A stretch of DNA of 64,000 bases from a phage. How positions within the stretch are numbered: position 1 is the first letter of the stretch; each line of letters opens with the position of its first letter. The stretch is taken from the sequence record PZ168832.1, one strand, 5' to 3'. The notes below the pieces were generated by a model. That model had not been told where the DNA came from and did no database searches. It saw only the letters and a list, made by a program, of their open reading frames with translations. Positions 924-43,123 of this stretch are shown here, piece by piece. The position numbers and the translations under genes were made by a program.

Positions 924-2006
924 ATGGCTAGTTTAAGAGAAGAAGCAAAAATAATTGAAGAGTTTTTAACAGAACTCCAAAGAGGCATCCCAGAAGATGA
1001 GCGCGTCATGACGGTGTTTGCTCCTGAAGCAACGGTACAGACCGACGAGCGCGGCAAGAAGATCAACAGCAGCTTCTGGCCTAAGCCTTGGAAGTTGGGC
1101 AAGCCGCTCATGCAGCACCAAAACGGCTATGCGTGCATCAGTTCAATGCGTAAGTCTCCCAACCCAAAGACGGGTGAGATGCGATACTGGCGTACAGAGT
1201 CGGCCTTTGGTCACGGTATGGCGATGATGGTCGACGACATCGGCCACGGTAAAGGGTCCAAAGGCGATTTAGATTTGGAATTCTTTTTCGAGCGACTGAA
1301 GCCGACTGTCATTGTCGAGACGTCACCGAACAACCACCAGCTTTGGTACTTCTTTAAAGAGCCGATTGACCATCTTATTCAGTTCAAAGCATTCCTTGGG
1401 TCTTTCGTAAACATGGTACTCAAGAAGGGCGGCGACAATACGATTAAAGACGTGACGCGCGTGGGCCGTGTTCCTGGGTGCATCAACAACAAGCGTGTGA
1501 CTCACGACGGCCCCTATAAATATGTCGATGAGAACGGCGACCCGTTCCGCTGCCGACTTGTCCATGCAGACTACTCCTTGCGCTACACCATCGAAGACAT
1601 CTGTCAGGCATTTGGCTTTCACGTCGTTATGTCGCAAAAGCGTGAGATTCAAATTGACGTCGATGAATACAAGTACGATGCTGTTTGGTATAAAATAGCC
1701 CAGCAGATTCTAGCGCGCAACAAAATGGGTGAAGGGTCTGATGGCGACGTCATCGAGAACATGTCAGGCAAGTGCCGCATAATCTGTCCTTGGGGTGAAG
1801 AACACACCAACGGCGACCCGTATGGCGCTTATTTTCGCGGCCCCATCCCTGGTGCTGAACATGAATTCGTTTTCGGTTGCGCTCACGACTGTCACCGGAA
1901 AGGGGAAGGCAAGAAAGGTTGGACCGCTTTTGTTGAAGCAGTAGTCATGCCTTATATTGAGAATCAACTTGATATGATAAATCGTCGCGCAGGTGGCATA
2001 AAATAG
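924..2006 (+). CDS. DNA primase-polymerase of the archaeo-eukaryotic primase (AEP) type
   Basis: 360 aa; motifs MMVDDIGHG (DxD), ETSPNNHQLWYFF (S..H) and RVGRVPGCINNK (RxPGxxN) in the order characteristic of AEP/prim-pol domains. Confidence 0.6.
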   Translation: MASLREEAKIIEEFLTELQRGIPEDERVMTVFAPEATVQTDERGKKINSSFWPKPWKLGKPLMQHQNGYACISSMRKSPNPKTGEMRYWRTESAFGHGMAMMVDDIGHGKGSKGDLDLEFFFERLKPTVIVETSPNNHQLWYFFKEPIDHLIQFKAFLGSFVNMVLKKGGDNTIKDVTRVGRVPGCINNKRVTHDGPYKYVDENGDPFRCRLVHADYSLRYTIEDICQAFGFHVVMSQKREIQIDVDEYKYDAVWYKIAQQILARNKMGEGSDGDVIENMSGKCRIICPWGEEHTNGDPYGAYFRGPIPGAEHEFVFGCAHDCHRKGEGKKGWTAFVEAVVMPYIENQLDMINRRAGGIK

Positions 2007-3315: not shown

Positions 3316-4986
3316 ATGTCAATTGAACATGACAATCTTCCAGAGGATACAGGTGATGAATTTGGTGCAATCTTTGACGAAATTCAAGACGCTGGTGTTT
3401 CAGAAGAAATGCAAGCAGCAGAGCAGCAAGGCACCAGAGCTAAAATAAGCCTTCAGCACAAGGCTGTTGAGAAAGATGCAGAGCGCATGGAATGCTACGG
3501 TGAAGAAGACTTGGTTGAAAGGGCACGTTTGCTCGCCTCACTTCAGGTAATCAAGTTCCCTCACTATAAACCGACGAAAGATGATTTTGTTCTTCAGGCG
3601 GACCGGACGAGTGACATGAACCGTTATGCGGTTTTCGACGCGTTGTTTGATAAGGGAAGCGGCGTTGTTCCATTCCCTCACAAAGATACTTTTCGTGGGC
3701 GCTTAGTCGACCATCGCGGCGAAACATTCACCGACCGGACGTTGGAAGTCACAGAGATAGTTGCCGCTGTCGACGCAGCAGGCCTGTCCAACCCAAACTC
3801 ACGGCAGGTCGCTCAATCCTATAAGGAATGGGCCATGCGTTATCAGCGCGACGACCTGATGGACTTCTTCTACAAGAAGCTGCCTGAATGGGACGGTACT
3901 GCGCGCATTGAGAAATACCTTATCGAGCTATTCCGACCGTTCGATACAGAGTTAAACCGACAAATCGGTGTGTATTTTTGGCTATCGCTCTATAACCGCC
4001 TGACCAACCCTGGCTGTCAAGCGCCAATATCCATTGCGCTCATCGGCGGCCAGAACGCAGGGAAGAGTTATTTTAGTAAGCTGCTTTGCGAAGCTATTAT
4101 GAACGACCGCCACGCAACACCGATTCCGTTGAACTTGGCCGCGCAAAACTTCAACCCGTTCTTGCGAGCTATTACGGGTCGCTCAATTATCGCGAACGTT
4201 GGCGAGATGACAGGCTTTAAAAAGGCCGACATCGAAAACATGAAAGCATTCCTGACTAAGACGGAAGATGACCTGGACTTCAAATTTGAAGACACGCAGG
4301 TTAAACCACGCCAGTGGATTGCGATCATGGACGGCAACGAATACGCAGGCATGCAGCGTGACGACACGGGCAACCGTCGTGTTTACCCTATCTTTGTTGG
4401 CCAACTTGCTGACAAGGACGGGCAACCGAACTGGTCTAAAGACTTCCAAGCTGACCTTTCCACTTTGAAAGAAGATGTTTGGCAGCTTATGGCTGAGTGC
4501 GCTGCGTGGATGGAGAAGCACGGCGAAGCAGGTTACAACGCCTTTGTTGGTGAAACGTCTCGTATGCTTACTGAGTTCAGCAAGAATGAAATGGAACGCG
4601 CTCGCGGCGTTATCCGTGATGAGATGGTCGACAACGACCTTGTTGAAGTCGTCATTACTGCGCCTTATGACCGACATCACAGCGGACGCTGGCACATCAC
4701 CAGTGGTGCAATCGCTATGGGATTCAGAGCTAAGTGCGGCAAGTCGCCTTTCTCACGTACCCTTGCGCCGCACATGTCGAAACTTGGATTTGAGCCTGCA
4801 ACCTATCGCAACCAGCGTGGTTACTTTACGCCGCTGATTAAGAATGAAGCAGGGGAATACATTTCTGACTTGATGACTATCTTGGCGTATCTTATCCGCG
4901 ACGAGTCTGACCCTGAAGATATTGAATTCTTGAAGAAGGTTATTGAACGCAAACGTTCTTTAGGAAGAGATAAGGATGAATTCTGA
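3316..4986 (+). CDS. VirE-like P-loop NTPase (primase-associated helicase-like replication protein)
   Basis: 556 aa; Walker A IALIGGQNAGKSYFSKLL; resembles primase C-terminal/VirE-family NTPases; lies downstream of the AEP primase. Confidence 0.55.
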   Translation: MSIEHDNLPEDTGDEFGAIFDEIQDAGVSEEMQAAEQQGTRAKISLQHKAVEKDAERMECYGEEDLVERARLLASLQVIKFPHYKPTKDDFVLQADRTSDMNRYAVFDALFDKGSGVVPFPHKDTFRGRLVDHRGETFTDRTLEVTEIVAAVDAAGLSNPNSRQVAQSYKEWAMRYQRDDLMDFFYKKLPEWDGTARIEKYLIELFRPFDTELNRQIGVYFWLSLYNRLTNPGCQAPISIALIGGQNAGKSYFSKLLCEAIMNDRHATPIPLNLAAQNFNPFLRAITGRSIIANVGEMTGFKKADIENMKAFLTKTEDDLDFKFEDTQVKPRQWIAIMDGNEYAGMQRDDTGNRRVYPIFVGQLADKDGQPNWSKDFQADLSTLKEDVWQLMAECAAWMEKHGEAGYNAFVGETSRMLTEFSKNEMERARGVIRDEMVDNDLVEVVITAPYDRHHSGRWHITSGAIAMGFRAKCGKSPFSRTLAPHMSKLGFEPATYRNQRGYFTPLIKNEAGEYISDLMTILAYLIRDESDPEDIEFLKKVIERKRSLGRDKDEF

Positions 4987-12388: not shown

Positions 12389-12880
12389 GCCTGTGGAATG
12401 TGAGGCTTTTGTGGTTATTTACGATTCAAGGCTGTAATTTAAGAGAGCGAAAATATTATAATAATTTATCAAGATTATTGCATATTGTGGCAATCAACGT
12501 TTATACGTATTTATGACAGTTTAATCCACTAAATAATACGGATAGAACAGTGAGGAAAATACAGCGGTGTATTTTAGTGTAAATATTGAATCAAAAATAA
12601 ATAATTATGGTGCTATTATATACGCAGATTGTTTGTAATTTATAGGATATTTTATCGTGGAGTATTGGCTAACGGTGCGTTAGCCGTGGGTCTTGGTGCT
12701 TGTGGTGTTGATGCTCAGAATTTTAATAATGTTTTAGTTTTAGTAATCGTAGTCAATGATGATACGTATAAGAAAATGAGAGTCACCCCTTCACAGGATA
12801 TTGTACCGTGGCCCTGTGGTGCGCCGCGCCTGGGATTGCTGGTATACACTGGTGCTATTTTGCCGCGAAGGCAGTCATTC

Positions 12881-13210
12881 ATACGTATCATGACGTATCA
12901 TTGGGCTATTGATTTATAAGGAAAAATACGCTGATACGGATGATACGGGTGCAAACATAATATATATAGAATTCCAGAAAATTAATTAACTCCATTTTGA
13001 ATTAATTTAAATTAATTTTTTTCTACATCCTCATACTTATACTAAACTTATATTTATACGTATCATCCGTAAGATATAAGTAAAAACAAAGACTTGCGGC
13101 AATACGGATGATACGTCATGATACGCTTCAACCAGCCATCTGCGGCTAAGTCATTGATTTGCATAACAAGCGGCGAAAGGGATGGATTTCTTTTATACGT
13201 ATCAAACAGT
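12881..13210. repeat. iteron region A: CCGTATCAT / ATGATACGG copies in alternating orientation around an AT-rich core
   Basis: acgtatcatgacgtatcat (~12883), gatacggatgatacgg (~12933), AT-rich core with gaattc and attaatttaaattaattttttt, cgtatcatccgta (~13059), atacggatgatacgtcatgatacg (~13102), tatacgtatca (~13196). Confidence 0.6.
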
Positions 13211-13339
13211 ACACCACGCACCACGGTCCGCAATCCACGCAGCATTATGATTTGTGTACATTTATAGCCATAATGAACATCAATCTGCACTTGAATATAA
13301 TGTCCATCCATTGTATAATTCACACTATTAATTTGCACT

Positions 13340-13828
13340 ATGGGATTTTGCACTATGAGTCAAGACTATGTAGCGATGCCTGAAGACTTTGAAGACCCGC
13401 GATTTGCAGAGCACAATCAGGCTTTATTCGATGAGTTCATTGACCTTGTTATTCAGGGCCATGACATGCGCGCAGCTTTTGCACTAGTATTTGGAATGGA
13501 AGTTGCAACGGATAACTACACTGGACAGCGAATCCTTTGCGCGCAACGCAACCCATACTACAAAATGCGCTTCAAAAAGCGTATGGAAGAGATGCCACTC
13601 AAGGATTTGTGGAGCGTAAAAGGTGCAATTCACAATTTGGTTAAGCTTGTGCGTGATCCAGAAGTCGCGGCGTCAGCCAAGCTTAATGCTATTCGCGAAC
13701 TGAATATCATCTACGGCATCACGATGATTGATGAAAACGGCAATAGTAAAATGGGCCGTTCCATGGACGATTTCTACAAGGATTTTGGAGAGGCAGCCAA
13801 AGAAGGCGAGCAATTCTCCCGCCACTAG
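13340..13828 (+). CDS. possible terminase small subunit (alternatively a DNA-binding regulator)
   Basis: 162 aa; FIDLVIQGHDMRAAFALVFG...AQRNPYYKMRF resembles the helix-turn-helix region of small terminase families (from memory); flanked by the 12-mer array. Confidence 0.4.
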   Translation: MGFCTMSQDYVAMPEDFEDPRFAEHNQALFDEFIDLVIQGHDMRAAFALVFGMEVATDNYTGQRILCAQRNPYYKMRFKKRMEEMPLKDLWSVKGAIHNLVKLVRDPEVAASAKLNAIRELNIIYGITMIDENGNSKMGRSMDDFYKDFGEAAKEGEQFSRH

Positions 13829-13845
13829 CCAATTTGCACTATAAA

Positions 13846-13880
13846 ACGGCCCTAGAACACATCTTCTCCACTTCTAGGGC
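13846..13880 (+). terminator. perfect 10-bp inverted repeat (ggccctagaa ... ttctagggcc), probable terminator
   Basis: Directly after the 13340..13828 stop; no strong T-run. Confidence 0.35.
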
Positions 13881-13942
13881 CGTCGGTAATACGACGGGGA
13901 AGGTTGCAACCGTAAACGCGTTAGAAAGTGTATTATTATAAG

Positions 13943-14206
13943 TCATCTTTTAGTCACCTTACGTAACAATTTACGACCTTCAGCCGTCCAATCGAACGAC
14001 TCCACCAGCAGATTCGCACTATAACCTAAGATGATGCGCCCTTTCTCGTTATCGACCCGCCAACAAGTCTCGAATAGCATTCGATTTGCACTATTAACTA
14101 TCGCCGCAACGCGCGTAGGGTAAACGCAATTTGCACTATGGTCATAAAGGGATAAGGTGCGACCACTTCCGATGGACAACGTAGCGATGAGAATGAGCGT
14201 ATTCAT
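13943..14206 (-). CDS. hypothetical protein (87 aa), island gene
   Basis: ORF track; CpG-rich codon usage; contains two 12-mer copies. Confidence 0.35.
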   Translation of the reverse strand: MNTLILIATLSIGSGRTLSLYDHSANCVYPTRVAAIVNSANRMLFETCWRVDNEKGRIILGYSANLLVESFDWTAEGRKLLRKVTKR

Positions 14207-14256
14207 AAGCCACCAATTTGCACTATGAAAAGCGACCCCGAAGGGCCGCCATTCGA

Positions 14257-14883
14257 TTAGATAATCTGGAAGGTGTAGGACTTGTTGCCGAACTCGAAGT
14301 TCAAGCGCCCAGCTTCCTTAAGCTTCATGCGGAAGCGAATATGTTTGCTATCCGGTAAGCCCAGCGCGGCGAACGCTACGCGGACCGATTTGAACTCTCC
14401 TACACCCTCGACCATAACGCCGTTACGGGTAAGACGCTTTTGCGCCACTTCCTTATTATCCCAACTTTTTGCAATGCCTTCGCTATTCGAACGGCGATGG
14501 GAAGGAGTTCCGTTTTGCACTACGCAATTTGCACTATCGTTTAAACCGCTCTTAACGAAGGCTTCATACTCTTCGTCGGTCATCGCGTCGAGTTCTTCCT
14601 GCGTCGGCTCGGCCTTTTTAACGACCGCACGCGCCTTATGCGTTTTTACATCGCTGGACACTTCCTCGCGCGGCTTCGCGTCGGGGATGGGCGATTCGTT
14701 GGACGGCTCATCGAGCGCGTTTAAGGACTCGATTAACGCGATTACGCGAGTCTCGGCGGTCCGGCGGTCCGAAAACTTCTTAATCGGTTTTGAGCCGGAA
14801 TTTGCATTATAGAATGCAACGAGGTCGGCGGTCTTAGTTGCGATAACGTCGCCGCTAGTCGAGAAGCGATTTAAGCTAACCAT
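14257..14883 (-). CDS. hypothetical protein (208 aa) with acidic central segment, island gene
   Basis: ORF track; EPTQEELDAMTDEEYEAF; unusually NCG-codon-rich. Confidence 0.45.
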   Translation of the reverse strand: MVSLNRFSTSGDVIATKTADLVAFYNANSGSKPIKKFSDRRTAETRVIALIESLNALDEPSNESPIPDAKPREEVSSDVKTHKARAVVKKAEPTQEELDAMTDEEYEAFVKSGLNDSANCVVQNGTPSHRRSNSEGIAKSWDNKEVAQKRLTRNGVMVEGVGEFKSVRVAFAALGLPDSKHIRFRMKLKEAGRLNFEFGNKSYTFQII

Positions 14884-14963
14884 AATAAACTCCTATTTGT
14901 TAGGGCGCTAGGCGCGAAAGAATTTTATTAAAGCGCCGCGCACGACGCTCTAAAAATCCTCTC

Positions 14964-15248
14964 TTACGCTTCGACGAGGGAGAAGGTTTCAAATTCTTCT
15001 TCTCCCATAACGAGTAAAATATTCCCGATTTCGACCGCTTCGAAGAAGTATCCGTTAACGTTTACTTCGAATGATTCGCGGTCCGATTCCGGTAACGCCG
15101 CGTAAAGTTTAAAAGCCTCGGCGACCGTTACCCCACCCGCTTCAATAGTTTGATCTACGTTCGCGGCGTAGACTTCGGATAAATTTTGTTTTACGCCGTA
15201 GTTCTCGACGATAGCGTTACGGATAGAAGAAACGTTAAGAATAGCCAT
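14964..15248 (-). CDS. small acidic protein, paralogue family member 1 (94 aa)
   Basis: About 16 D/E versus 4 K/R; SEVYAANVDQTIE and FEVNVNGYFFEAVEIGN align with YLSNVDATIE and YRVTINGFVYTITEIGG of 15880..16170. Confidence 0.5.
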   Translation of the reverse strand: MAILNVSSIRNAIVENYGVKQNLSEVYAANVDQTIEAGGVTVAEAFKLYAALPESDRESFEVNVNGYFFEAVEIGNILLVMGEEEFETFSLVEA

Positions 15249-15316
15249 TTTAAACTCCTAGTTGGGATAGGCGTTAACGACCTATTCGTTAACTCATCCC
15301 GTCCCGATATGAGTAC

Positions 15317-15344
15317 ATTATAATATAGTGTAGAAAAAAGTAAA
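15317..15344 (-). promoter_or_regulatory. promoter-leader cassette, copy 1 (minus strand): TTTACT, spacer, TATAAT, leader gtactcatatcgggacggg
   Basis: Reverse complement of the divergent region matches the two plus-strand cassette copies. Confidence 0.4.
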
Positions 15345-15388
15345 GCACTTTTTCGATAAAAATGCGATAAATTATTTTATCTTTTTTC

Positions 15389-15433
15389 TTTACTTCTTCG
15401 TACACTCGCGTATACTTGTTTATATCGAGACGG
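15389..15433 (+). promoter_or_regulatory. promoter-leader cassette, copy 2: TTTACT (16 bp) TATACT, leader gtttatatcgagacggg
   Basis: ctttacttcttcgtacactcgcgtatacttgtttatatcgagacggg upstream of ATG 15472. Confidence 0.45.
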
Positions 15434-15471
15434 GCGATGGCCTTTCTTCTACTAGCATCGGGAGCTTTATT

Positions 15472-15774
15472 ATGACTACTTTGATCTCTTCCATCCTTAC
15501 TTACGACGAAGACCGCTTAACCGTTCGCTCTCTTATCGCCGCCGTTAACGCGGAACTAGAATCTAGCGCCATTAAGGTCCGCGCGGTCGCCTTCATCGGC
15601 CTTTCCTTCGACGATATGAAGTACGCCGAACGTAGCGCCATCCGCTTCACGAAGACCGACGACGAAGCCGTTACCCTTATCGAGACGGTTACGCCGCGCG
15701 ACGAAGCGTTAATTATCATCGAGTATATCGATATAGAAGGTGATAAAGCTTATAAATATTTTATCGCAAAATAA
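15472..15774 (+). CDS. small acidic protein (100 aa), island gene
   Basis: ORF track; driven by cassette copy 2. Confidence 0.45.
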   Translation: MTTLISSILTYDEDRLTVRSLIAAVNAELESSAIKVRAVAFIGLSFDDMKYAERSAIRFTKTDDEAVTLIETVTPRDEALIIIEYIDIEGDKAYKYFIAK

Positions 15775-15785
15775 CGAAAAATTGC

Positions 15786-15830
15786 TTTACTTATTCGTAC
15801 ACTAAGACTATAATGTTTATATCGAGAGGG
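15786..15830 (+). promoter_or_regulatory. promoter-leader cassette, copy 3: TTTACT (17 bp) TATAAT, leader gtttatatcgagaggg
   Basis: gctttacttattcgtacactaagactataatgtttatatcgagaggg upstream of ATG 15880. Confidence 0.45.
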
Positions 15831-15879
15831 ATGAGGAAGCGAATAGGTCGCTACCCTCCCGACTAACTAGGAGAATATT

Positions 15880-16170
15880 ATGATTACTTTATCCGCTATC
15901 CGCGCCGCTCGCGTCGAAACTTCCGAAAACTCTAATGTATTTGGCGAAACCTTAGAGAGCGTTTATCTCTCTAACGTAGACGCGACTATCGAGTCTATTT
16001 ATGAACCGATCAACTTCCTCGACCTTTACAAGTATCGCGACGAGGACGTAGCATCCTACCGCGTAACGATTAACGGCTTCGTCTATACGATTACCGAAAT
16101 CGGCGGCGAATATCTCGCGATCCCGCAACTCGGCGGAGAAGTGACTTATTTTAAAATCGTAAGCCTTTAA
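15880..16170 (+). CDS. small acidic protein, paralogue family member 2 (96 aa)
   Basis: Alignable to 14964..15248 product; about 15 D/E versus 6 K/R. Confidence 0.5.
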   Translation: MITLSAIRAARVETSENSNVFGETLESVYLSNVDATIESIYEPINFLDLYKYRDEDVASYRVTINGFVYTITEIGGEYLAIPQLGGEVTYFKIVSL

Positions 16171-16181
16171 GGAGAAGAAAA

Positions 16182-16391
16182 ATGACTAATATGAATAACT
16201 CTCTTAACGCGCGCGCCCATCGTACCGCCGTCATCGATATGTTCCGCGAACTTAAGGAATTATGCGATAATATGAACGCGATGTTATCCATCGGCGGCTG
16301 GGGATACGAAGAAGAGGTTAAATACGCGGTTATGCGTCGTAAGCGCGATAACGTCCTGGGACAAATTAAACGCGCCGGATTATTCCTTTAA
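16182..16391 (+). CDS. hypothetical small protein (69 aa)
   Basis: ORF track; aggag RBS. Confidence 0.4.
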   Translation: MTNMNNSLNARAHRTAVIDMFRELKELCDNMNAMLSIGGWGYEEEVKYAVMRRKRDNVLGQIKRAGLFL

Positions 16392-16416
16392 TTATAATTA
16401 CCCACCGTTACTAATA

Positions 16417-16440
16417 GGCCGCGCTTAGTCGCGGCTTTTC
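16417..16440 (+). terminator. rho-independent terminator (ggccgcgcttagtcgcggc plus tttt)
   Basis: Read directly after 16182..16391. Confidence 0.45.
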
Positions 16441-16561
16441 TTCGTCCCTATTTCGATGCGCTTCTCCGCGAAAACTCCTTTATCCTTCCCTTCGTCGTCG
16501 CATAATCTTCTTCGAGATGCTCCTTAGTTCGCATAACAGGTATTACGTTAAATGGAGAACA

Positions 16562-16823
16562 TCGCGTAAGTCCTTGTTTTATATAGACACCTATATCGGA
16601 CCGTTAGGGCGGGTCGCGTAAGTCGTTGTTTTATAAAGGCGCAAAACTTTCCCTTCGTTCCGAACTAAAACGAGGAATATGCCGACCCTTCGTCCGAAAA
16701 TAGTACGCATGCGAAATTACATGCATCTAGAATAATCCCCACCGATATTATCCTACACGCAATCATTCGCTTTCGAATCATTATGCTTCATATTGTTATG
16801 CGTCAAATCATTCGCTTTCGAAT
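16562..16823. repeat. direct repeats in an ORF-poor region: tcgcgtaagtc(c/g)ttgttttata x2 and atcattcgctttcgaat x2
   Basis: Copies at about 16562/16614 and 16762/16807; the second contains palindrome attcg-cttt-cgaat. Confidence 0.4.
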
Positions 16824-17095
16824 TGTAACGCTGGAAACTGTAACGGCTATTGATTATTGCGTTCGTGTGGTTTTTATGGCATGGGTCTTTTGGTGCGTTT
16901 TGGTACTTGATGGAATTTGCGGTACACTAATCAAAATACGACACATTTGGTCCACTAACTTTTCAAAGAAAAAGTCCCAGACAGTACCGTACTATTTTGT
17001 ACCCACAGTAAATTTGCAGTACACTCCTGCGCGGCAGGCAAAATAAAGGGCCGCCACAGCGACCCACGATTCACGGTTAAATCAACAAGCACCCA

Positions 17096-24872: not shown

Positions 24873-27281
24873 TTGATTCCCTTTCACTGTCAGGTGGCGT
24901 TAACAATGAAAATTCTTGGCATAAAACTCTGGGAGAAGACGCAACCAGAAGCCGAACCAGCGGAGATGCCGCCAGGCGACCCATTGGCACCGTTTGAACG
25001 CCTTGAAAGGCGCGGCAGCGGTCAACGCTGGGAAAAGACTGAAAGCAATCGACCGACCTTTAAAACGGTTGATGACTTCCCTTTATATGAGCCTGATATT
25101 AATGGCGATGGTGTTGCAATCATAAAAGGTCGTTCAGTCGATTCCGCAACAGTATCCAAAAAGGTTATGGATAATGCCTTAAAGAACATCAGTTCAGAAG
25201 GGCAAGTCAACCCATACACAGTACCTATTCAACTTCAAAACTGGTATTTGTCACAGTCATTTATCGGCTATCAAGCTTGTGCCATCATCGCACAGCATTG
25301 GCTGGTGAACAAGGCTTGCTCTATGGTAGGCCGTGATGCAGTGCGTAAAGGTTGGGAAGTAAAATCAAGCTCTGAATCAGAATTGTCTGTGCAGGCCAGC
25401 GAACGCTTAAAGCAAATTGATAAAGAATTTAATATCAAAGAGCACTTAGTTGAAGCCGAACGATTCAAAAATATTTTTGGTATCCGCGTCATCATATTTG
25501 ATGTGCGTAGCGATGATCCAGAATACTACAGCAAACCTTTTAACATTGATGGTGTGACAAAGGGGTCTTATAAGGGAATCATTCAGGTTGACCCTTATTG
25601 GATGATGCCATTTTTGACGTCTGAAAACACCGCCGACCCTGCATCACAGCACTTCTATGATCCAGAATACTGGGTGATCAGCGGACAACGTTATCATCGA
25701 AGCCACCTGATCATTTTGCGAAACGATGAGCCAGCTGATATTCTCAAGCCGACTTATATTTACGGCGGCATCCCTCTGACTCAGCAGATTTATGAACGCA
25801 TCTATGCCGCTGAACGTACCGCTAACGAAGCGCCATTGCTGGCGATGTCCAAGCGTACAACCACGCTGCGGACCGACGTTGACAAGGCGATTGCCAATGA
25901 GCGGTCTTTTGCTGAACGTCTGATGATGTGGATTAAGTACCGCGACAACTATGCAGTCAAAGTGCTTGGTCAAAAAGAAGAGATGGACCAGTTCGACATC
26001 AACTTGTCAGACTTCGACAGCATCATCATGAACCAGTACCAGCTGGTGGCCGCAATCGCAAAAGTTCCGTCGACCAAACTTCTTGGGACTTCGCCAAAAG
26101 GCTTTAACGCCACTGGTGAATTTGAGATGGTCAGCTATCACGAAGAGTTGGAAACGTGCCAGCAGCATGACCTGACAAAAATTCTCGACCGCCATTACAA
26201 AATCCTTCTCAAATCAGAAGGGGTGGAAGTCGACGTTAAGGTTGCATGGGAACCAGTTGGCTCACTTACTGCTACTCAACTTGCAGAAATCAACGACAAG
26301 CGAGCTAACACTGGCAAAACTCTCATTGATGCTGGCGTCATTTCTCCTGATGAAGAGCGCGACCGCATCAAAGACGACAAAAACAGCGGCTACAACCGTC
26401 TGCCGGAAGACGCAGCAGAAGAAACCCCAGGGATGTCTCCAGAGAATATGGCATTGCTTGGCAAGTCTGCTGGTGAAGTCCTGCAAGGTAAGGCCGATAT
26501 TGAACAGGCGAAAGTTGATGTCGTTAAGATGGGCGGCCAGTTCTATAGCGAAACAGGTATTATGCCAGAGGGTGCCGCGCGTGGTGAGTTGGCGGAAAAC
26601 CCTGACAAAGCGCCTGTCGAAATCAACATGGACGATACCGATGATGAATCAAGCCATCAGGTTGATGTCCTAACGCAGTTGAAAGAAGGGCTGGAGGGTA
26701 TTGCGGATTACTACCTGAAAGAAGGTCAGGATGTGGATTTTGACCCTCAAAAAGATTCACGGTCGGTGCAACCGTCTACCCTTCCAAGCGTTAAAGGACA
26801 CGTCGTCAACTTACGCCACAACGTGGGTAAAATGGACGCAGCATCATTACCTAAGATGAAGTTGCACGGAATGATTCTTGGCATTGAGAATCCGCGAAAC
26901 AGCATTCGTAGAGGAAACAGCCTTGACGGTGAATGGGCCGTGAAGATGCCGCACCACTACGGATTCATCAAGGGCACCAAGGGCGCAGACGGTGATGAAG
27001 TCGACTGCTTTGTGGGTCCAAATCTGAAGTCGCCGAAAGTCTTTATCGTGAACCAAAACGATAACTACTCTGGCGAGTTTGATGAACACAAGTGTATGCT
27101 TGGATTCGATTCAGCAGAAGAAGCGAAAGAAGCTTATCAAGCATCATTTGGTAACGGTTGGAACGGATTCGACTCAATCCACGAATTAGATGTGAACTCA
27201 TTCAAGGAGTGGTTGAAGGGTGATTGCTCTCAAGCATACGGAGCACTCAATAATCCTACTAATTCACCGAAGCAAGGTTGA
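24873..27281 (+). CDS. portal protein with long C-terminal extension
   Basis: About 800 aa between terL and the Mu-F-like head protein; likely start is ATG at 24906 (MKILGIK), since the track start is a non-ATG codon. Confidence 0.7.
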   Translation: MIPFHCQVALTMKILGIKLWEKTQPEAEPAEMPPGDPLAPFERLERRGSGQRWEKTESNRPTFKTVDDFPLYEPDINGDGVAIIKGRSVDSATVSKKVMDNALKNISSEGQVNPYTVPIQLQNWYLSQSFIGYQACAIIAQHWLVNKACSMVGRDAVRKGWEVKSSSESELSVQASERLKQIDKEFNIKEHLVEAERFKNIFGIRVIIFDVRSDDPEYYSKPFNIDGVTKGSYKGIIQVDPYWMMPFLTSENTADPASQHFYDPEYWVISGQRYHRSHLIILRNDEPADILKPTYIYGGIPLTQQIYERIYAAERTANEAPLLAMSKRTTTLRTDVDKAIANERSFAERLMMWIKYRDNYAVKVLGQKEEMDQFDINLSDFDSIIMNQYQLVAAIAKVPSTKLLGTSPKGFNATGEFEMVSYHEELETCQQHDLTKILDRHYKILLKSEGVEVDVKVAWEPVGSLTATQLAEINDKRANTGKTLIDAGVISPDEERDRIKDDKNSGYNRLPEDAAEETPGMSPENMALLGKSAGEVLQGKADIEQAKVDVVKMGGQFYSETGIMPEGAARGELAENPDKAPVEINMDDTDDESSHQVDVLTQLKEGLEGIADYYLKEGQDVDFDPQKDSRSVQPSTLPSVKGHVVNLRHNVGKMDAASLPKMKLHGMILGIENPRNSIRRGNSLDGEWAVKMPHHYGFIKGTKGADGDEVDCFVGPNLKSPKVFIVNQNDNYSGEFDEHKCMLGFDSAEEAKEAYQASFGNGWNGFDSIHELDVNSFKEWLKGDCSQAYGALNNPTNSPKQG

Positions 27282-27282
27282 T

Positions 27283-28134
27283 ATGGCTTTTAAAGCTTCG
27301 AAAAAACGTGAACGCCGCTCACCCGATAGAATCGGACGCGGCAGTCCGATAATCCCATCAAACGCTATTGCGATGGCCTACCGTCGTGAGATGAAAGGTC
27401 TTTGCTATGCGATGATTGATGACTATCAGGCAGGCATTTCAGAATGGCTTGACAAGAAGCAGGTGCAGAAGTTTTTTGCGCAAGACTCTGCTGATTCGAC
27501 ATTCCAGACCCTTATGAAACGGCTGCAACTGAAATGGGCAAAGGCGTTTGCACGTGTTGGGTCGAAGATTGCCGCTGATTTTATCAAATCGGTCGAAAAG
27601 GGTGCCACTTCTGCTACATTCGCAAGCCTTAAGTCCGCAGGCATAGAAGCGCCAAAGGCCACATATAACAAATTCGTTGAGAACACTCTTAGAACAAGCG
27701 AGAAGTTTAACACGACTCTAGTGACTAAGGTCGGCGAGGATATTCACAACAGGGTGTACGAAGCGGTGATGCTTTCGCTGACTTCGCCAGACCCAGCACA
27801 GCAAGGCGCATCCGGCATTCAGGCGGCATTAAGAAATGTCAAACACTTCTCTGCAAAACGCGTAGACCTTATCGCCAAAGACCAAACGAGCAAACTTTAT
27901 TGCGTATTAAGTGATGAAAGGATGCGACAGAATGGCGTGGAGGAATTTGAGTGGGCGCATTCAGGAGCAGGCAAAGAGCCGCGAATATCACATGAGCACG
28001 TCGACGGCATGAGATTCAAGCTTGATGACAAACGCTTATGGGAAGTAGGTGGAGAACTTAAGTTCAAAAAGGGTGACATCGGTCCTCCTGGATGGGCAAT
28101 ACACTGCAAGTGCAGAAAAATACCAATTATCTGA
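27283..28134 (+). CDS. head morphogenesis protein (Mu gpF / SPP1 gp7-like)
   Basis: Track ORF 27220..28134 trimmed to MAFKASKK; C-terminal ...PPGWAIHCKCRKIPII resembles the conserved H-x-C-x-C end of this family. Confidence 0.65.
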   Translation: MAFKASKKRERRSPDRIGRGSPIIPSNAIAMAYRREMKGLCYAMIDDYQAGISEWLDKKQVQKFFAQDSADSTFQTLMKRLQLKWAKAFARVGSKIAADFIKSVEKGATSATFASLKSAGIEAPKATYNKFVENTLRTSEKFNTTLVTKVGEDIHNRVYEAVMLSLTSPDPAQQGASGIQAALRNVKHFSAKRVDLIAKDQTSKLYCVLSDERMRQNGVEEFEWAHSGAGKEPRISHEHVDGMRFKLDDKRLWEVGGELKFKKGDIGPPGWAIHCKCRKIPII

Positions 28135-28386
28135 ATTAAGATAGTTGTAAATAAGCGCAATTTAAACTGTGCAATTATTAATTTGATATGAACTAAAGAG
28201 GAAGTTATGCAAAAGATTATTCAGTCACGTTATGTTAAAGTGCGAAATATTAATTGCAACTCTTTGCTTTCTTGGAAATGGGCTGTTTATGACTCAATGC
28301 TGATTGGCGTTTTAGTTGCTGGAGTGCTTTTTAATATTCACTGAATCGCCTGGCAATGGATTGCCGCAGGATTTCACGCGTATAAT

Positions 28387-28655
28387 GACGTATCATCCGT
28401 ATCAAGTAAGTAGTTGTTTTCAAAAGAATCTTACGGATGATACGGATGATACGCGTTGCCGCGATACTTTATAGGAATTCAAATAAATTAATTTAAAATT
28501 ATATATCTAATTTAATTTTATTTTTTTATAAACTCTTATATATGAAAAGTATCCGTATCATCCGTATCATCCGTAGCACACCAGTGATAGCGCGGCTTAT
28601 ACACCGATACGGATAAAAATACGCCTCATTTTATCCGTATCATCCGTATCACACT
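28387..28655. repeat. iteron region B: diverged copy of region A
   Basis: gacgtatcatccgtatca (~28388), ttacggatgatacggatgatacg (~28431), gaattc plus attaatttaaaatt...attttattttttt core, ccgtatcatccgtatcatccgta (~28550), ccgatacggat (~28605), tccgtatcatccgtatca (~28633). Confidence 0.6.
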
Positions 28656-28760
28656 AATTAAGGCGCGGCTATATCGGTTGTTATACATATTCAAACCATA
28701 ATTATTGTTTGCCTAAGTTTTTTTCATTAGATATAATACACAATACTTATTTGAGGGTGG

Positions 28761-30179
28761 ATGCGAATGCAAACGGCACGCGAAATTGACAAAAATGGAT
28801 TCTTGACGATTGTGGGTTGTCCCATTTCGTCATTTGGCATTTTTGATTATTCTGCAGGTCAGGTTGGACTTGATGGTGATCCGAATCGCATCGTAAAAGT
28901 TTATCGCCCAGAGTCAGCGGTGAAAGACCCCGAAGCGATAGATTCATTCAAAAATATCCCTTTCATCGACAATCACGAAATGCTTTCTGGATTCGAAGGT
29001 GATGAGGATAACACAGCACCCGAAGAGTATGGAGTTGATGGCGTTCTGACTGGCAATGTTTATTATGACAAGCCATGGATGCGCGGCGACCTTAAAGTGT
29101 TTAGCCGTCGTCTGAAGAAGGCCATTGATTCTGGAAAGGTTGACTTGTCTTTGGGCTATGACTGTGAATTCATCATACAGTCTGGAGAGTTTGACGGGCA
29201 GCCGTATGAAGTGGTGCAGACAACTCTTCGCGGCAACCACATTGCTCTCGTGGACGTTGGTCGAGTACCAGGTGCACGGGTGCTGGATGGTCGTTGCTTT
29301 GACCATCTTTGTTTGACGACTGTAACACCATCCAACGAGGATTTAGACATGCCAAAACCGTTAAAAGGTAAAGCGCGTGATAATGCTGTTGAACAGCTGA
29401 AATCACTGATCCCTGCGCTCGAACAATTTCTGAATGAAGAGAGTACTGAAGCTGCTCATCAGGACGAAGTTGAAGTGAAAGCAGAAGAGAAGGACTCAAC
29501 CGAAAATCGTGAAGAAGTAATGGTTGATCCAGAAGTCAAGGCAGAAGCAGAAGAAACCCCAGAAGGTGAAGAGAAGTTTGAAGTTGAAACTGAATCTAAC
29601 GCTGGCGGCGAACTTCCGCAATTGATCAGCCAAATCGAAGCACTTATTGCAAAACTGAAAGGTGGCGCGGTAGGTGATGAAGAAGAAGTTGAAGCCGAAG
29701 TCAAAGACGAAGAAGTTGAAGTCAAGGCTGAAGATGTATCACCTTGCGACAAAGCTGAAGATGTGGTTAGCGGCCTGCAAAACAGCAACGTAAAGGGGGC
29801 TTCGGTCGAAAAAGATGACAAACCGACAAAAGCGGCGAAAGCGTCGCCAGGTCCAGCAAAAGGGGAACACTCAATGGCATCTGATTCAGCAGTTGCTGCT
29901 TTCTACGCTGATTCTGCTCGTAAGAATAGCCTCTACCAGCGCCTGTCTAAAGTTGTTGGTGCCTTTGATCATGCAACTATGGACTCCAAGTCCGTAGCGA
30001 AATATGGCGCTAAAAAGTTAGGCTTGAAGTGCGTTGATGGTGCTGAGTTTGACGTGGTGGATAATTATCTGCGTGGCGTTGAACACGGTCAAAAACAGCG
30101 TGTAGTCGCAAAACAAAAGGCCGCTGCGGATTCTGCAGCAACTGACGAAGCATTTGAAGCTTGGTTGAAAGGGGAATAA
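28761..30179 (+). CDS. probable prohead protease/scaffolding fusion protein
   Basis: 472 aa; globular N-terminal domain followed by Glu/Ala/Lys-rich low-complexity repeats (EEVEVKAEE...); sits between portal/head protein and capsid gene. Confidence 0.5.
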   Translation: MRMQTAREIDKNGFLTIVGCPISSFGIFDYSAGQVGLDGDPNRIVKVYRPESAVKDPEAIDSFKNIPFIDNHEMLSGFEGDEDNTAPEEYGVDGVLTGNVYYDKPWMRGDLKVFSRRLKKAIDSGKVDLSLGYDCEFIIQSGEFDGQPYEVVQTTLRGNHIALVDVGRVPGARVLDGRCFDHLCLTTVTPSNEDLDMPKPLKGKARDNAVEQLKSLIPALEQFLNEESTEAAHQDEVEVKAEEKDSTENREEVMVDPEVKAEAEETPEGEEKFEVETESNAGGELPQLISQIEALIAKLKGGAVGDEEEVEAEVKDEEVEVKAEDVSPCDKAEDVVSGLQNSNVKGASVEKDDKPTKAAKASPGPAKGEHSMASDSAVAAFYADSARKNSLYQRLSKVVGAFDHATMDSKSVAKYGAKKLGLKCVDGAEFDVVDNYLRGVEHGQKQRVVAKQKAAADSAATDEAFEAWLKGE

Positions 30180-42544: not shown

Positions 42545-43066
42545 ATGAGAAAGAATAAAGTAATTGAGTTGTTTGGAGTTACTTATGAAATACATCAATT
42601 CAGCGCAATAGATGCGTTTGAAATGGTTGATGCGATAAGCATATTAACTCCACTTGAATTATTAAGTGAATGTCATGTTATTAAATATGACGGAACTAAA
42701 GTCAGGTTAAACTCTGAGAAGGCCATAAGTGAAGAAGTGAAAAGTGTGCCAAATCACTTGCCGCCAAACCTTGTATTGAAAGTTCTAATGGAAGCGGTAA
42801 AGAAGCACAATTTTGGATTCCTCAGTGATTGGAAAGGCACTAAGATTCCAAATAGATTCTTGGCTGACGTTCCGACCGTGGAGCCTAATTATCTTGAGCC
42901 GATGGTTGCAAGCCTAATAAACAATGGTCTTGCTTCGTTAAAAGAACTGGAAGAATATTATTCATTGCGTGATGCATTCGCCATGTTTGATGGACTAATA
43001 GCAAAATCACTTAATGAAGCCTACTCAAACGAAGCTGCCATTAAAGAATCAAAGTCAAATCGCTAA
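42545..43066 (+). CDS. hypothetical tail protein
   Basis: ORF track. Confidence 0.4.
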   Translation: MRKNKVIELFGVTYEIHQFSAIDAFEMVDAISILTPLELLSECHVIKYDGTKVRLNSEKAISEEVKSVPNHLPPNLVLKVLMEAVKKHNFGFLSDWKGTKIPNRFLADVPTVEPNYLEPMVASLINNGLASLKELEEYYSLRDAFAMFDGLIAKSLNEAYSNEAAIKESKSNR

Positions 43067-43123
43067 AATATTGCTTATAGACTCCTTATAGATTATAATT
43101 TGTTGATCAGATATAAGGAGTCT

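What the first reader, a model, noticed from the sequence alone, without database searches (positions are those of the whole stretch)
28150..28760. Region B: a second, diverged copy of the region A iteron element, between head morphogenesis and scaffold genes
The same architecture reappears 15.5 kb away in the same orientation: inverted GATACGGATGATACG units, gaattc, an attaatttaaa-rich AT core with a T-run, then direct CCGTATCATCCGTATCATCCGTA and further half-sites. The two copies are clearly homologous but not identical, so this is a genuine duplicated element, not an assembly artefact. Two such elements could be dual origins, paired binding sites for one DNA-binding protein, or a small inverted-repeat mobile element that has spread in the genome.
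Basis: seen in the sequence. Interest (0 to 1): 0.6.

Follow-up and report, generated by a model that had tools for sequence, protein, structure and literature searches.

The report
Second origin-like iteron element in phage
Region B is a real, strongly conserved non-coding DNA element: mirror-image arrays of short protein-binding repeats around the most easily melted stretch of this E. coli phage genome. It is the internal twin of the element where the phage's DNA left end is made, and is most likely a second replication origin for the phage's SaPI-Rep-like helicase.

Summary
The window is a Wifcevirus (PB1-like E. coli myophage). The 9-bp-period unit (GATACGGAT / ATCCGTATC) occurs only at A (~12.76-13.20 kb) and B (28.39-28.65 kb). 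The AT cores are themselves homologous.

New findings:
1. A/B pairs sit at syntenic sites in four genera. Each genus has its own unit, shared by its A and B.
2. A lineage-wide second motif, GCCGC left and GCGGC right of the core, is strictly polar (39 of 40 sites).
3. The A and B cores are the two least stable duplex segments of each genome.
4. The phage helicase matches SaPI1 Rep1 full-length. Rep1 is a self-loading initiator-helicase that reads iterons placed in opposite directions around an AT-rich centre.
5. Ancestrally, A lies directly after that helicase gene and before terS.
6. The physical left end of the virion DNA (start of the ~3.5-3.9 kb terminal repeat) falls inside A's core.
7. 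B is absent from Xanthomonas phage XcP1.

B is not a mobile element, gene or known RNA. Best reading: a second SaPI-type replication origin (confidence ~0.5). Main rival: a terminase-recognition paralogue (~0.25). Sequence alone cannot settle this.

The parts
28207..28344 (+). 45-aa ORF (membrane-like) immediately upstream of B; flanking context only
   Evidence: ORF list. Annotated as Bas101_0007. Homologous small ORFs precede the B site in PA1, PB1 and XcP1.
28363..28367 (.). GCCGC, distal left copy of the lineage-wide polar motif (TTGCCGC)
   Evidence: GCCGC occurs only left of the cores and GCGGC only right, across 7 elements in 4 genera.
28388..28404 (+). Distal left iteron doublet, ACGTATCATCCGTATCA (9-bp period)
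28432..28453 (-). Proximal left iteron array, TACGGATGATACGGATGATACG (2.5 units). It forms a 22-nt perfect inverted repeat with 28554-28575. Bas101 lacks exactly one 9-bp unit here.
   Evidence: inverted repeat I1.
28458..28462 (.). GCCGC, proximal left copy (cgTTGCCGCga), abutting the iteron array
28470..28480 (.). TATAGGAATTC box at the left edge of the core. Counterparts: A TATAGAATTC; PA1 TATAGGAG and TATAGGTA; Serratia phage TATAAGGAA.
   Evidence: In A-type elements the genome end lies 26-29 nt to the right of this box.
28481..28550 (.). AT-rich core (2.5% GC over 40 nt; T7 run at 28521-28527); putative DNA-unwinding element
   Evidence: Least stable 80-bp duplex of the whole window (-75.9 kcal/mol against a mean of -110.6, sd 7.1). 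Invariant in 6 Wifceviruses except one T indel.
28551..28575 (+). Proximal right iteron array, ATCCGTATCATCCGTATCATCCGTA (about 3 units)
28592..28596 (.). GCGGC, right-hand copy of the polar motif
28606..28614 (-). Single inverted unit GATACGGAT, the dyad partner of 28388-28404 about centre ~28504
   Evidence: I9, I17-I19.
28633..28651 (+). Distal right iteron doublet, ATCCGTATCATCCGTATCA. A second direct array 82 bp after the first is a B-type feature; PA1 B has the same at 84 bp.
28665..28669 (.). GCGGC, distal right copy
28709..28737 (+). Sigma-70-like promoter, TTGCCT-17-TATAAT, for the protease-scaffold-capsid genes. It sits about 58 bp after the last iteron and probably does not belong to the repeat module.
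   Evidence: Equivalent promoters were read by eye in PA1 (TTGCTT-17-TATAAT) and PB1 (TTTACC-17-TATAAT) from the sequences.
12760..13204 (.). Element A, the paralogue of B.
- Iterons: 12760(-), 12884 and 12894(+), 12932 and 12941(-), then the core, then 13059(+), 13109 and 13119(-), 13198(+).
- Dyad centre ~13004.
- GCCGC to the left, GCGGC to the right.
- The physical left genome end lies at 12993|12994, inside the core.
12994..16889 (+). Direct terminal repeat of the virion DNA, mapped onto the window. The left end is identical in 4 records; the right end GGGTCTTT|TGGTGCG is shared by 3 of 4.
13355..13828 (+). terS (small terminase), immediately right of A
   Evidence: The profile hits PDB 7UXE 'Small terminase' at E 1.2e-64. 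Annotated as such in the Mansfield record.
3316..4986 (+). VapE-like SF3 helicase, the candidate iteron-reading initiator. Its C-terminal ~110 aa are highly variable between genera and have winged-helix-like topology.
   Evidence: Pfam VapE-like. PDB 7PDS at E 4e-11. Full-length Foldseek match to SaPI1 Rep1 at E 3e-16. Variability.
924..2006 (+). RepB-type primase, partner of the helicase
   Evidence: Pfam RepB_primase at 5.5e-36.

Best explanation
**What B is.** B is a cis-acting protein-binding DNA module about 290 bp long (28363-28669). It is not a gene, an RNA or a transposon. Arrays of a genus-specific 9-bp iteron point in opposite directions on either side of a ~70-bp, almost pure-AT core. 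That core is the easiest place in the genome to melt. A strictly polar, lineage-wide GCCGC...GCGGC motif also flanks the core.

**My commitment.** B is a replication origin of the SaPI Rep / P4 alpha kind.

**Proposed steps.**
1. The phage's VapE-like SF3 helicase (3316-4986) binds the iterons through its variable C-terminal winged-helix domain.
2. One hexamer self-loads on each side of the core.
3. The core is melted.
4. The RepB-type primase (924-2006) primes.

**Relation to A.** B is the second of two such modules. The ancestral one, A, sits right after the helicase gene and before terS, and its melted core is also where the left genome end is formed.

**Shown versus inferred.**
- Shown: the anatomy, the homology of A and B, synteny and within-genome sharing of the unit across genera, the stability minima, the fold of the helicase, and the position of the genome end.
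- Inferred: which protein binds, that melting and initiation occur at B, and any interplay between A and B.
For: **Architecture matches SaPI origins.**
- SaPI origins have 6-12 short iterons, an AT-rich centre, and at least two iterons on each side pointing in opposite directions. The Rep C-terminal winged helix reads them and two hexamers self-load (PMC9371898).
- B has about 10 units arranged ++ -- | +++ - ++.

**The initiator is encoded in the window.**
- The window helicase has a VapE-like domain.
- Its only PDB sequence hit is SaPI1 Rep1, 7PDS (E 4e-11).
- The AF2 model (pLDDT 87) matches 7PDS over ~480 columns at E 3e-16, against 1e-7 or worse for the next families.
- Its C-terminal ~110 aa have H-H-beta-beta topology. 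Only 7-17% of their columns are invariant between genera, consistent with the change of unit.

**The cores look like unwinding elements.**
- The A and B cores are the #1 and #2 least stable 80-bp duplexes genome-wide in the window, Bas101, PA1, PB1 and KKP3709.
- The single A core of XcP1 is #1 in its genome.

**Ancestral position next to the helicase gene.**
- The A-type module lies immediately downstream of the helicase ORF in PB1, XcP1, BcepF1, a TropicalSun-like Erwinia phage and a JGI contig.

**Comparative conservation.**
- There are two syntenic modules per genome in Wifcevirus, Kylevirus, Myosmarvirus and Pbunavirus.
- The unit differs between genera (GATACGG, TAACCGT, CGAAAAG-type, GGTAATTT) but is shared by A and B within each genome.
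- B is as conserved as coding DNA among 6 Wifceviruses, apart from a clean one-unit (9-bp) polymorphism.

**No competing candidate origin.**
- An unbiased k-mer cluster scan finds no other iteron cluster.

**Packaging-type features are absent from B.**
- The polar, end-related features (TGCACTA array, terS, the DNA end) are found only on the A side.
Against: - No experiment of any kind bears on B.
- The only direct physical datum for the element family is a DNA end inside A's core, next to terS. That points to packaging rather than replication.
- B is not next to the helicase gene.
- XcP1 lacks B, so a second module is dispensable in at least one lineage.
- The SaPI model does not explain the lineage-wide GCGGCAA motif.
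- The winged-helix assignment of the helicase C-terminus rests on model topology and a global Foldseek alignment, not on a domain-level match. The single-sequence model of the domain was unusable.
- The cumulative GC-skew minima that others used to guess Pbunavirus origins lie elsewhere (PMC12390725). In this window, however, skew simply follows transcription direction.
- The units have a 9-bp period, longer than the 5-6-nt iterons of SaPIs.
Confidence: 0.5

Rival explanations
1. **Terminase-recognition (pac-like) paralogue.** In this reading the iterons are binding sites for the small terminase, TerS. TerS is a decamer, and each element has about 10 units. At A, TerS positions TerL to cut in the core. 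B is a second TerS site that is uncut or rarely cut. It might pair with A (synapsis or looping, as proposed for the two T4 gp16 sites), or couple head-gene expression to packaging.
For: - The left end of virion DNA is at 12993|12994, central in A's core. Four records deposited under different phage names agree: WFC, Ro157lw and SP13 as deposited with their repeats, and Mansfield by PhageTerm.
- The linear record of Serratia phage KKP3709 also starts inside its A-type core, 26 nt after the TATAAGGAA box, against 29 nt in Wifcevirus.
- terS lies immediately right of A in Wifcevirus, Kylevirus, Myosmarvirus, Pbunavirus, BcepF1 and others.
- TerS residues ~31-60 vary between genera, as the unit does.
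- Repeats flanking a cut site have precedents: P1 pac, SPP1 pacL/pacC/pacR, lambda cosB (own knowledge; SPP1 also in PMC9611059).
Against: - B is not a reported genome end. With sequence-specified ends, cutting at B would give defective genomes.
- A conserved second pac-like site has almost no precedent.
- A cut site has no need to be the least stable DNA of the genome, yet B is even less stable than A.
- The homologous E217 TerS showed no appreciable DNA binding in vitro (review PMC9611059).
- In XcP1 the A-type element stays with the helicase gene, 3 kb away from terS.
- Pbunaviruses are reported as headful and permuted, yet they keep both elements.
- The A side carries its own polar repeat array (TGCACTA x9-10), which could be the real packaging signal and which B lacks.
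Confidence: 0.25
2. **Transcriptional operator or insulator.** In this reading the arrays bind a phage regulator that controls the sigma-70-type promoters just downstream: terS after A, and protease-scaffold-capsid after B. The AT core acts as a bent or UP-like region, or as a terminator.
For: - Each element is followed by a good sigma-70-like promoter. For B this is TTGCCT-17-TATAAT at 28709-28737, about 58 bp after the last iteron, with similar spacing in PA1 and PB1.
- Authors of the JG024 paper noted AT-rich boxes and conserved intergenic motifs, and suggested a phage sigma-factor signal (PMC3008698).
Against: - Only two such elements exist per genome, although there are many operons.
- The core is ~210 bp upstream of the -35 box, too far for an UP element.
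- Dyad-symmetric arrays around the genome's stability minimum, and a DNA end in the A core, are not explained.
- XcP1 keeps the promoter but has no B.
Confidence: 0.1
3. **Miniature inverted-repeat mobile element** that inserted at two places in the genome.
For: - There is a 22-nt perfect inverted repeat with a 100-nt spacer.
- There are two copies in one genome.
Against: - There are exactly two copies, at the same syntenic sites, in four genera whose proteins are only ~35-50% identical.
- There are no further copies in complete genomes.
- No target-site duplication is evident.
- There is no match in 5,426 E. coli genomes.
- The interior and flanks have diverged together with the host genome.
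Confidence: 0.02
4. **Structured non-coding RNA or single-strand DNA hairpin signal** encoded by the inverted repeats.
For: - The single strand folds at -48 kcal/mol with z = -6.8.
Against: - That fold is only the inverted iteron arrays pairing across an unstructured AT loop.
- Many units are direct repeats that cannot pair.
- No Rfam family reaches threshold at B or A.
- No promoter or terminator pair brackets the region.
Confidence: 0.03

Closest known systems
SaPI / PICI replication origins with Rep (VapE-like SF3 self-loading helicase-initiator)
   Same: - Short iterons lie on both sides of an AT-rich centre, at least two per side in opposite directions, about 6-12 in total.
- The initiator is a VapE-like SF3 helicase with a variable C-terminal DNA-reading domain and a separate primase.
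- The origin sits ancestrally right after the helicase ORF.
- Specificity diverges between relatives (PMC9371898).
   Different: - The host here is a virulent 68-kb myophage, not a satellite island.
- There are two modules per genome. B is 25 kb from the helicase gene, inside the head-gene cluster.
- The units have a 9-bp period rather than 5-6 nt.
- There is an extra lineage-wide polar GCCGC/GCGGC motif.
- One module coincides with the genome end.
- Binding has not been tested.
Satellite phage P4 ori + crr (two cis regions bound by the alpha primase-helicase)
   Same: - Two separated cis elements in one genome carry the same iterons and would be read by one SF3 primase-helicase-type initiator (own knowledge of P4).
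   Different: - P4 crr is an enhancer without its own unwinding site.
- B has a complete core that is even less stable than A's.
- The spacing is 15.5 kb, against 4.5 kb in P4.
- Whether A requires B is unknown.
Packaging sites with repeats flanking the cut: P1 pac, SPP1 pacL-pacC-pacR, lambda cosB-cosN
   Same: - At A, repeat arrays flank the position where the mature DNA end is made.
- terS is adjacent.
   Different: - Those sites are single per genome and not extreme in AT content.
- B is not a known end.
- Binding of this TerS family to DNA has not been detected (PMC9611059).
T4 'pac synapsis' (two homologous gp16-binding sequences in genes 16 and 19)
   Same: - Two homologous sites in one genome could be bridged by a ring-shaped TerS (model summarised in PMC9611059).
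   Different: - The T4 sites are short coding-sequence homologies ~3 kb apart with no iteron/AT-core architecture.
- The model is itself unproven and is said to be possibly T4-specific.

Membership tests
SaPI/PICI-type Rep-iteron replication origin | The genome encodes a Rep-type (VapE-like SF3) self-loading helicase-initiator | tested here: met
   - Pfam VapE-like_dom at 1.6e-28.
- phmmer against PDB gives only 7PDS, SaPI1 Rep1, at 4e-11.
- The full-length AF2 model matches 7PDS at E 3e-16 over ~480 columns.
SaPI/PICI-type Rep-iteron replication origin | The initiator has a C-terminal winged-helix domain that reads the iterons | tested here: inconclusive
   - The model shows H463-474, H480-489, E493-497 and E500-504, a winged-helix-like topology. 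The global alignment to Rep1 covers the C-terminus.
- The region is hypervariable between genera.
- No domain-level fold match was obtained. The single-sequence domain model failed (pLDDT 43).
SaPI/PICI-type Rep-iteron replication origin | 6-12 short iterons, at least 2 on each side of an AT-rich centre, pointing in opposite directions | tested here: met
   - B has 8 exact and 2 near units arranged ++ -- | +++ - ++ around a core of 2.5% GC.
- The same layout occurs in PA1, PB1 and KKP3709.
SaPI/PICI-type Rep-iteron replication origin | The AT-rich centre is an unwinding element | tested here: met
   - This was tested in silico only.
- The B core is the least stable 80-mer of the window (4.9 sd below the mean).
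- The A and B cores rank #1 and #2 in five genomes.
- Actual melting was not testable.
SaPI/PICI-type Rep-iteron replication origin | The origin lies immediately downstream of the rep ORF | tested here: not met
   - For B this is not met. B is ~23.5 kb downstream of the helicase gene, between head genes.
- It is met for the paralogue A in PB1, XcP1, BcepF1, the TropicalSun-like phage and a JGI contig.
- It is not met for A in Wifcevirus itself, where ~30 small genes intervene.
SaPI/PICI-type Rep-iteron replication origin | Rep binds and melts the origin, and the element supports replication | not testable with these tools
   Needs EMSA or KMnO4 footprinting, an ori-plasmid assay, or marker-frequency sequencing.
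Phage packaging site (pac/cos type, TerS-bound) | The mature DNA end is generated within or next to the site | tested here: not met
   - For B, none of the 29 GenBank records opens at B. The four records that give terminal-repeat ends place them at window 12994 and 16889/16971.
- It is met for A.
- Read-level data for B were not available.
Phage packaging site (pac/cos type, TerS-bound) | The site lies in or next to terS | tested here: not met
   - B is 14.7 kb from terS.
- A is immediately upstream of terS.
Phage packaging site (pac/cos type, TerS-bound) | Specific TerS binding | not testable with these tools
   The literature reports no appreciable DNA binding by the homologous E217 TerS. 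The DNA that was tested is unknown to me (PMC9611059).
Miniature inverted-repeat transposable element | Terminal inverted repeats with target-site duplication, multiple dispersed near-identical copies, and presence/absence polymorphism | tested here: not met
   - Two diverged copies sit at fixed syntenic sites in 4 genera.
- There are no other copies.
- There is no match in E. coli genomes.
- No target-site duplication is seen.
Known RNA families (Rfam 15) | A covariance-model match at or near the gathering score | tested here: not met
   The best match scores 31.8 bits against a gathering score of 80 (plant miRNA hairpin models). A has nothing at E <= 0.1.

The most novel reading that the evidence does not exclude
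**The reading.** The iteron/AT-core module is a dual-use element that couples replication initiation to genome-end formation.
- The same melted core that loads the Rep-like helicase at A is the substrate that the terminase cuts to make the left end of a ~3.5-3.9 kb exact terminal repeat.
- The lineage-wide outward-pointing TYGCGGCAA motif would be read by a second, conserved protein, such as TerS or the primase.
- B would be a sister origin kept uncut because it lacks the A-side polar signals (the TGCACTA array).

**A variant.** A and B are bridged by ring-shaped TerS or by helicase double hexamers. The 15.5-kb interval carrying terS, terL and portal would then be looped or over-replicated.

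**What it would provide.** This would be the first origin-plus-packaging element defined for the therapy-relevant PB1-like phages, and a mechanism for making long exact terminal repeats.
Probability: 0.2. Interest if true: 0.8.

Novelty: new variant of a known kind. Interest (0 to 1): 0.6.

Why it matters
- **A gap in well-used phages.** PB1-like phages (Pbunavirus) are among the most used therapeutic Pseudomonas phages, and Wifcevirus is noted for very fast replication (PMC11990801). Neither a replication origin nor a packaging signal has been defined for them. Origins have only been guessed from GC skew. The solved TerS showed no DNA binding and no pac site is known. Earlier authors saw only 'AT-rich boxes... 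function unclear'.
- **Concrete candidates.** The paired elements give short, mutable DNA targets for all of these functions. They are two iteron/unwinding modules, a pan-lineage GCGGCAA motif, the exact left-end position inside one module, and a polar TGCACTA array beside it.
- **Directly testable questions.**
  - What does this TerS recognise?
  - How do SaPI-Rep-type self-loading helicases work in a virulent phage?
  - How are long exact terminal repeats made?
- **Practical use.** The elements matter for rebooting or engineering these genomes, and for building ori-based plasmids.

Tried and rejected
1. **Same heptamer elsewhere.**
   - A scan of IMG/VR and GTDB genomes for CGTATCATCCGTATCA found two unrelated viral contigs, L028 and L014. 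Both have opposed TGATACG/CGTATCA arrays beside primase-SF3-helicase genes.
   - This looked like evidence for a shared reader protein. However, their proteins and C-termini show no similarity to the window helicase. With millions of contigs, a shared 7-mer is expected by chance. I kept this as an analogy only.
   - Alistipes MAG loci with hairpin-type arrays were not pursued.
2. **GC skew.** It tracks transcription direction and shows no inflection at B, so it is uninformative.
3. **Rfam at B and A.** Nothing was found.
4. **E. coli genomes.** No copy was found.
5. **Pfam and PHROGs on flanking small proteins.** There were no functional hits. TerS was recognised only through a profile against PDB.
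6. **Single-sequence AF2 model of the helicase C-terminus.** It was unusable.
7. **Papers and supplements.**
   - The primary E217 terminase paper is not held.
   - The supplementary TSS tables for phage 14-1 are not held.
   - The DRL-P1 'terminal repeat' is an assembly overlap within structural genes.
   - The BASEL paper has no termini data for Wifcevirus.
8. **Right end of the terminal repeat.** No iteron or GCGGC module is present there. Weak TTTGCRGTACACT repeats near it are not above chance.
9. **Which protein reads the iterons.** I tried to decide between TerS and the helicase from intermediate relatives (L195-L197). The unit drifts gradually (GATACGT, ATACGSA, ACGGATA, ACGGTTA) and both proteins diverge in step, so this was not discriminating.
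Full report
**1. Identity of the window.**
The window is 96-97% identical to 29 GenBank Wifcevirus genomes: E. coli/Shigella myophages WFC, WFH, ECML-117, FEC19, Mansfield and Bas98-101. These are distant relatives of the Pseudomonas PB1-like phages (PMC11990801). The gene map follows the annotated relative Bas101:
- Rightward primase (924-2006), VapE-like helicase (3316-4986) and about 30 small genes, ending at 12347.
- A 1-kb gap that contains element A.
- terS (13355-13828).
- A leftward block, then terL (22627-24087), portal and the head-morphogenesis gene (27220-28134).
- A 45-aa ORF (28207-28344), then element B, then the protease (28767-30179), capsid and tail genes.
- A leftward replication block.

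**2.
- The 14-mer CCGTATCATCCGTA (up to 2 mismatches) occurs 9 times against 0.26 expected. All hits are in A or B.
- The 7-mer CGTATCA occurs 24 times against 6.3 expected. Seventeen are in the two loci and the remaining 7 are at background level.
- The complete genome of Bas101 has the same two clusters and no third.
- B's only significant match in the window is A (E 1e-10). The AT cores stripped of iterons still align far better than shuffles or other AT-rich windows (21 against 2.3 +/- 4.7, and at most 9).
- A and B are colinear and in the same orientation, 15.5 kb apart.

**3. Anatomy of B.**
From left to right:
- GCCGC (28363)
- ++ iterons (28388-28404)
- -- iterons (28432-28453)
- GCCGC (28458)
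- TATAGGAATTC box (28470-28480)
- AT core (28481-28550; 2.5% GC over 40 nt)
- +++ iterons (28551-28575)
- GCGGC (28592)
- one - unit (28606-28614)
- ++ iterons (28633-28651)
- GCGGC (28665)
- a sigma-70-like promoter (28709-28737)

The inner arrays form a 22-nt perfect inverted repeat. The whole element is dyad-symmetric about ~28504, except for the extra right-hand doublet. A is dyad-symmetric about ~13004.

**4. Comparative genomics.**
Using the helicase as a handle I examined other genera.
- **Kylevirus.** Pantoea phage PA1 has no CGTATCA cluster. It has the same architecture, built from TAACCGT/ACGGTTA units, at both syntenic sites: after the small ORF and before the protease, and upstream of the terS homologue.
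- **Pbunavirus.** PB1 has both elements with GGTAATTT units.
- **Myosmarvirus.** Serratia phage KKP3709 has both, with long shared blocks.
- **Intermediate relatives.** Three of them show the unit drifting gradually.
- **Within each genome** A and B use the same unit, while the unit differs between genera. One genome-specific reader is therefore implied.
- **A-type and B-type arms.** In both Wifcevirus and PA1 the right arm is an inverted pair in A and two direct doublets 82-84 bp apart in B. The two copies have therefore been distinct since before those genera split.
- **Constraint within Wifcevirus.** Among six Wifceviruses, B (core and spacers included) varies no more than the protease coding sequence. 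The one structural change is loss of exactly one 9-bp unit in Bas101.
- **Absence in a distant relative.** Xanthomonas phage XcP1 has an A-type element but no B. Its gap holds only the small ORF, a terminator and a promoter.

**5. A second, lineage-wide motif.**
- Over 7 elements in 4 genera, GCCGC occurs 19 times left and 0 times right of the core.
- GCGGC occurs once left and 20 times right.
- Background is 0.4-0.85 per 300 bp.
- The consensus is T-Y-GCGGC-A-A, pointing outward. It sometimes abuts an iteron directly.
- BcepF1, a TropicalSun-like Erwinia phage and a JGI contig show the same polarity.
- No model I considered explains this motif.

**6. Element A is where the genome ends.**
- Wifceviruses have a ~3.5-3.9-kb direct terminal repeat (PMC6563267; PMC6753283).
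- The WFC, Ro157lw and SP13 records carry exact repeats. Together with PhageTerm-opened Mansfield, all four start at the same base, window 12994, in A's core (...AATTAATTAACTCC|ATTTT).
- Three of the four share the right end, at 16889|16890. The total lengths differ, so both ends are sequence-specified.
- KKP3709's linear record also begins inside its A-type core, at a similar distance from the TATA(A)GGAA box.
- The gene right of A is terS. A profile of it hits the solved E217 small terminase, 7UXE, at E 1e-64, in agreement with Mansfield's annotation.
- B is not an end in any record.

**7. Evidence pointing to an origin.**
- The A and B cores are the two least stable 80-bp duplexes of the whole genome in all five genomes that have the pair. 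The single core of XcP1 is #1 in its genome.
- The window helicase's only PDB sequence relative is SaPI1 Rep1, 7PDS.
- A confident model of the helicase (pLDDT 87) matches Rep1 full-length at E 3e-16. The next families are at 1e-7 or worse.
- SaPI Reps are self-loading initiator-helicases. Their C-terminal winged helix reads 6-12 short iterons that lie just downstream of rep, at least two on each side of an AT-rich centre in opposite directions, with one hexamer loading per side (PMC9371898). This description fits the A/B module.
- The A-type module lies directly after the helicase ORF in PB1, XcP1, BcepF1, the Erwinia phage and a JGI contig. The ancestral order is therefore helicase - A - terS. 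Later gene insertions fell on one side or the other.
- The helicase C-terminus is winged-helix-like in the model and is the most variable part of the protein.

**8. A-side-only features.**
- All ten exact TTGCACTA sites of the window lie on the + strand at 13333-14536. That is inside the left end, running through terS and antisense through the leftward genes.
- The array is conserved in Bas101, three intermediate relatives and PA1, and is nearly absent elsewhere in those genomes.
- In PA1 and L196 the complement of Chi is co-enriched there.
- B has none of this. What A and B share is the symmetric module. What makes A an end may be these extra polar signals.

**9. Weighing the explanations.**
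- For packaging: the end in A's core and the adjacency of terS.
- For an origin:
  - a conserved second copy that is not an end;
  - extreme meltability, greater in B than in A;
  - a Rep1-like initiator encoded in the genome;
  - the SaPI-like layout;
  - the ancestral position after the helicase gene;
  - persistence of both elements in Pbunaviruses, which are reported as headful;
  - the reported lack of DNA binding by E217 TerS.
- My estimates: B as a Rep-type origin ~0.5; a TerS/pac-like paralogue ~0.25; a promoter operator ~0.1.
- MITE and RNA readings are essentially excluded.
- A hybrid, in which an origin core doubles as the cut site, is the most interesting reading left open.

**10. 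Novelty.**
- Iteron-plus-unwinding-element origins read by SF3 initiators are known from SaPI/PICI and P4.
- What appears undescribed is:
  - their presence as a conserved pair in virulent PB1-like myophages;
  - the pan-lineage GCGGCAA motif;
  - the coincidence of one copy with the boundary of the terminal repeat.
- Earlier papers noted only unexplained AT-rich intergenic motifs, or guessed origins from GC skew.
- I rate it a new variant of a known kind, of moderate to high interest. It turns three open questions for these phages (the origin, the TerS target, and how the terminal repeat forms) into simple experiments.

Noticed in passing
window 13333-14536 (+ strand): All 10 exact TTGCACTA sites of the 64-kb window lie here, on one strand. 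They sit 0.34-1.54 kb inside the left genome end, running through terS and antisense through the leftward genes. The array is conserved in Bas101, L195, L196 and Pantoea PA1 (8-9 copies each, almost none elsewhere), and absent from PB1, KKP3709 and XcP1. It is a candidate polar packaging or end signal.
   Followed up: partly
L188 (PA1) 42964-44536; L196 323-1824: CCACCAGC, the complement of E. coli Chi, is clustered on the + strand within ~1.8 kb right of the A-type core: 7 of 7 sites in PA1 and 6 of 7 in L196. In that orientation RecBCD entering at the left end would meet Chi. The Wifcevirus window has only one such site (14002).
   Followed up: partly
window 28135-28206: The window lacks a ~0.9-kb gene (annotated 'tail fiber' or 'head fiber' protein, e.g. 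Bas101_0006). All 29 GenBank relatives carry it between the head-morphogenesis gene and the 45-aa ORF, just upstream of B.
   Followed up: no
window 16889-16971: The right end of the terminal repeat is GGGTCTTT|TGGTGCG (16889|16890) in Ro157lw, SP13 and Mansfield. The WFC record places it 82 bp further right (TTTTCAAAGAAA|AAG, 16971). The region has no iteron or GCGGC module, so the two genome ends are specified by different sequences.
   Followed up: partly
L198/L199 (Xanthomonas phage XcP1) 54480-54900 and 7276-7647: XcP1 has a single A-type element (ATCCGTAT/ATACGGA units, GCCGC | AT core | GCGGC). It lies right after the helicase gene and is separated from terS by ~3 kb of small genes. XcP1 has no B element.
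   Followed up: yes
L028 2725-3005; L014 2190-2620 (IMG/VR contigs): Two unrelated viral contigs carry opposed arrays of the same heptamer (TGATACG/CGTATCA) beside primase-SF3-helicase genes (D5_N/DUF5906/Pox_D5; PriCT_2/AAA_25). These are probable origins of satellite-like elements. There is no protein similarity to the window, so this is convergence.
   Followed up: partly
L094 4514-4590, 7093-7160, 7654-7700; L075 5948-6020 (Alistipes MAGs): Intergenic hairpin-type arrays built from the same CGTATCA unit (CGTATCAnnCGTATCA..TGATACGnnTGATACG) recur at several places in Alistipes genomes. This is possibly a REP-like or terminator repeat family.
   Followed up: no
L190 (Serratia phage KKP3709) 975-1090: There are three copies of aaaaaatAAGCATGCTTtgta (a 10-bp palindrome) just downstream of terS. 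The record also has many fragmented ORFs, suggesting frameshift errors.
   Followed up: no
window 28767 vs 28761: The longest protease ORF starts at ATG 28761. The ribosome-binding site GAGGGTGG directly abuts that codon, so the likely start, as annotated in relatives, is the second ATG at 28767.
   Followed up: no
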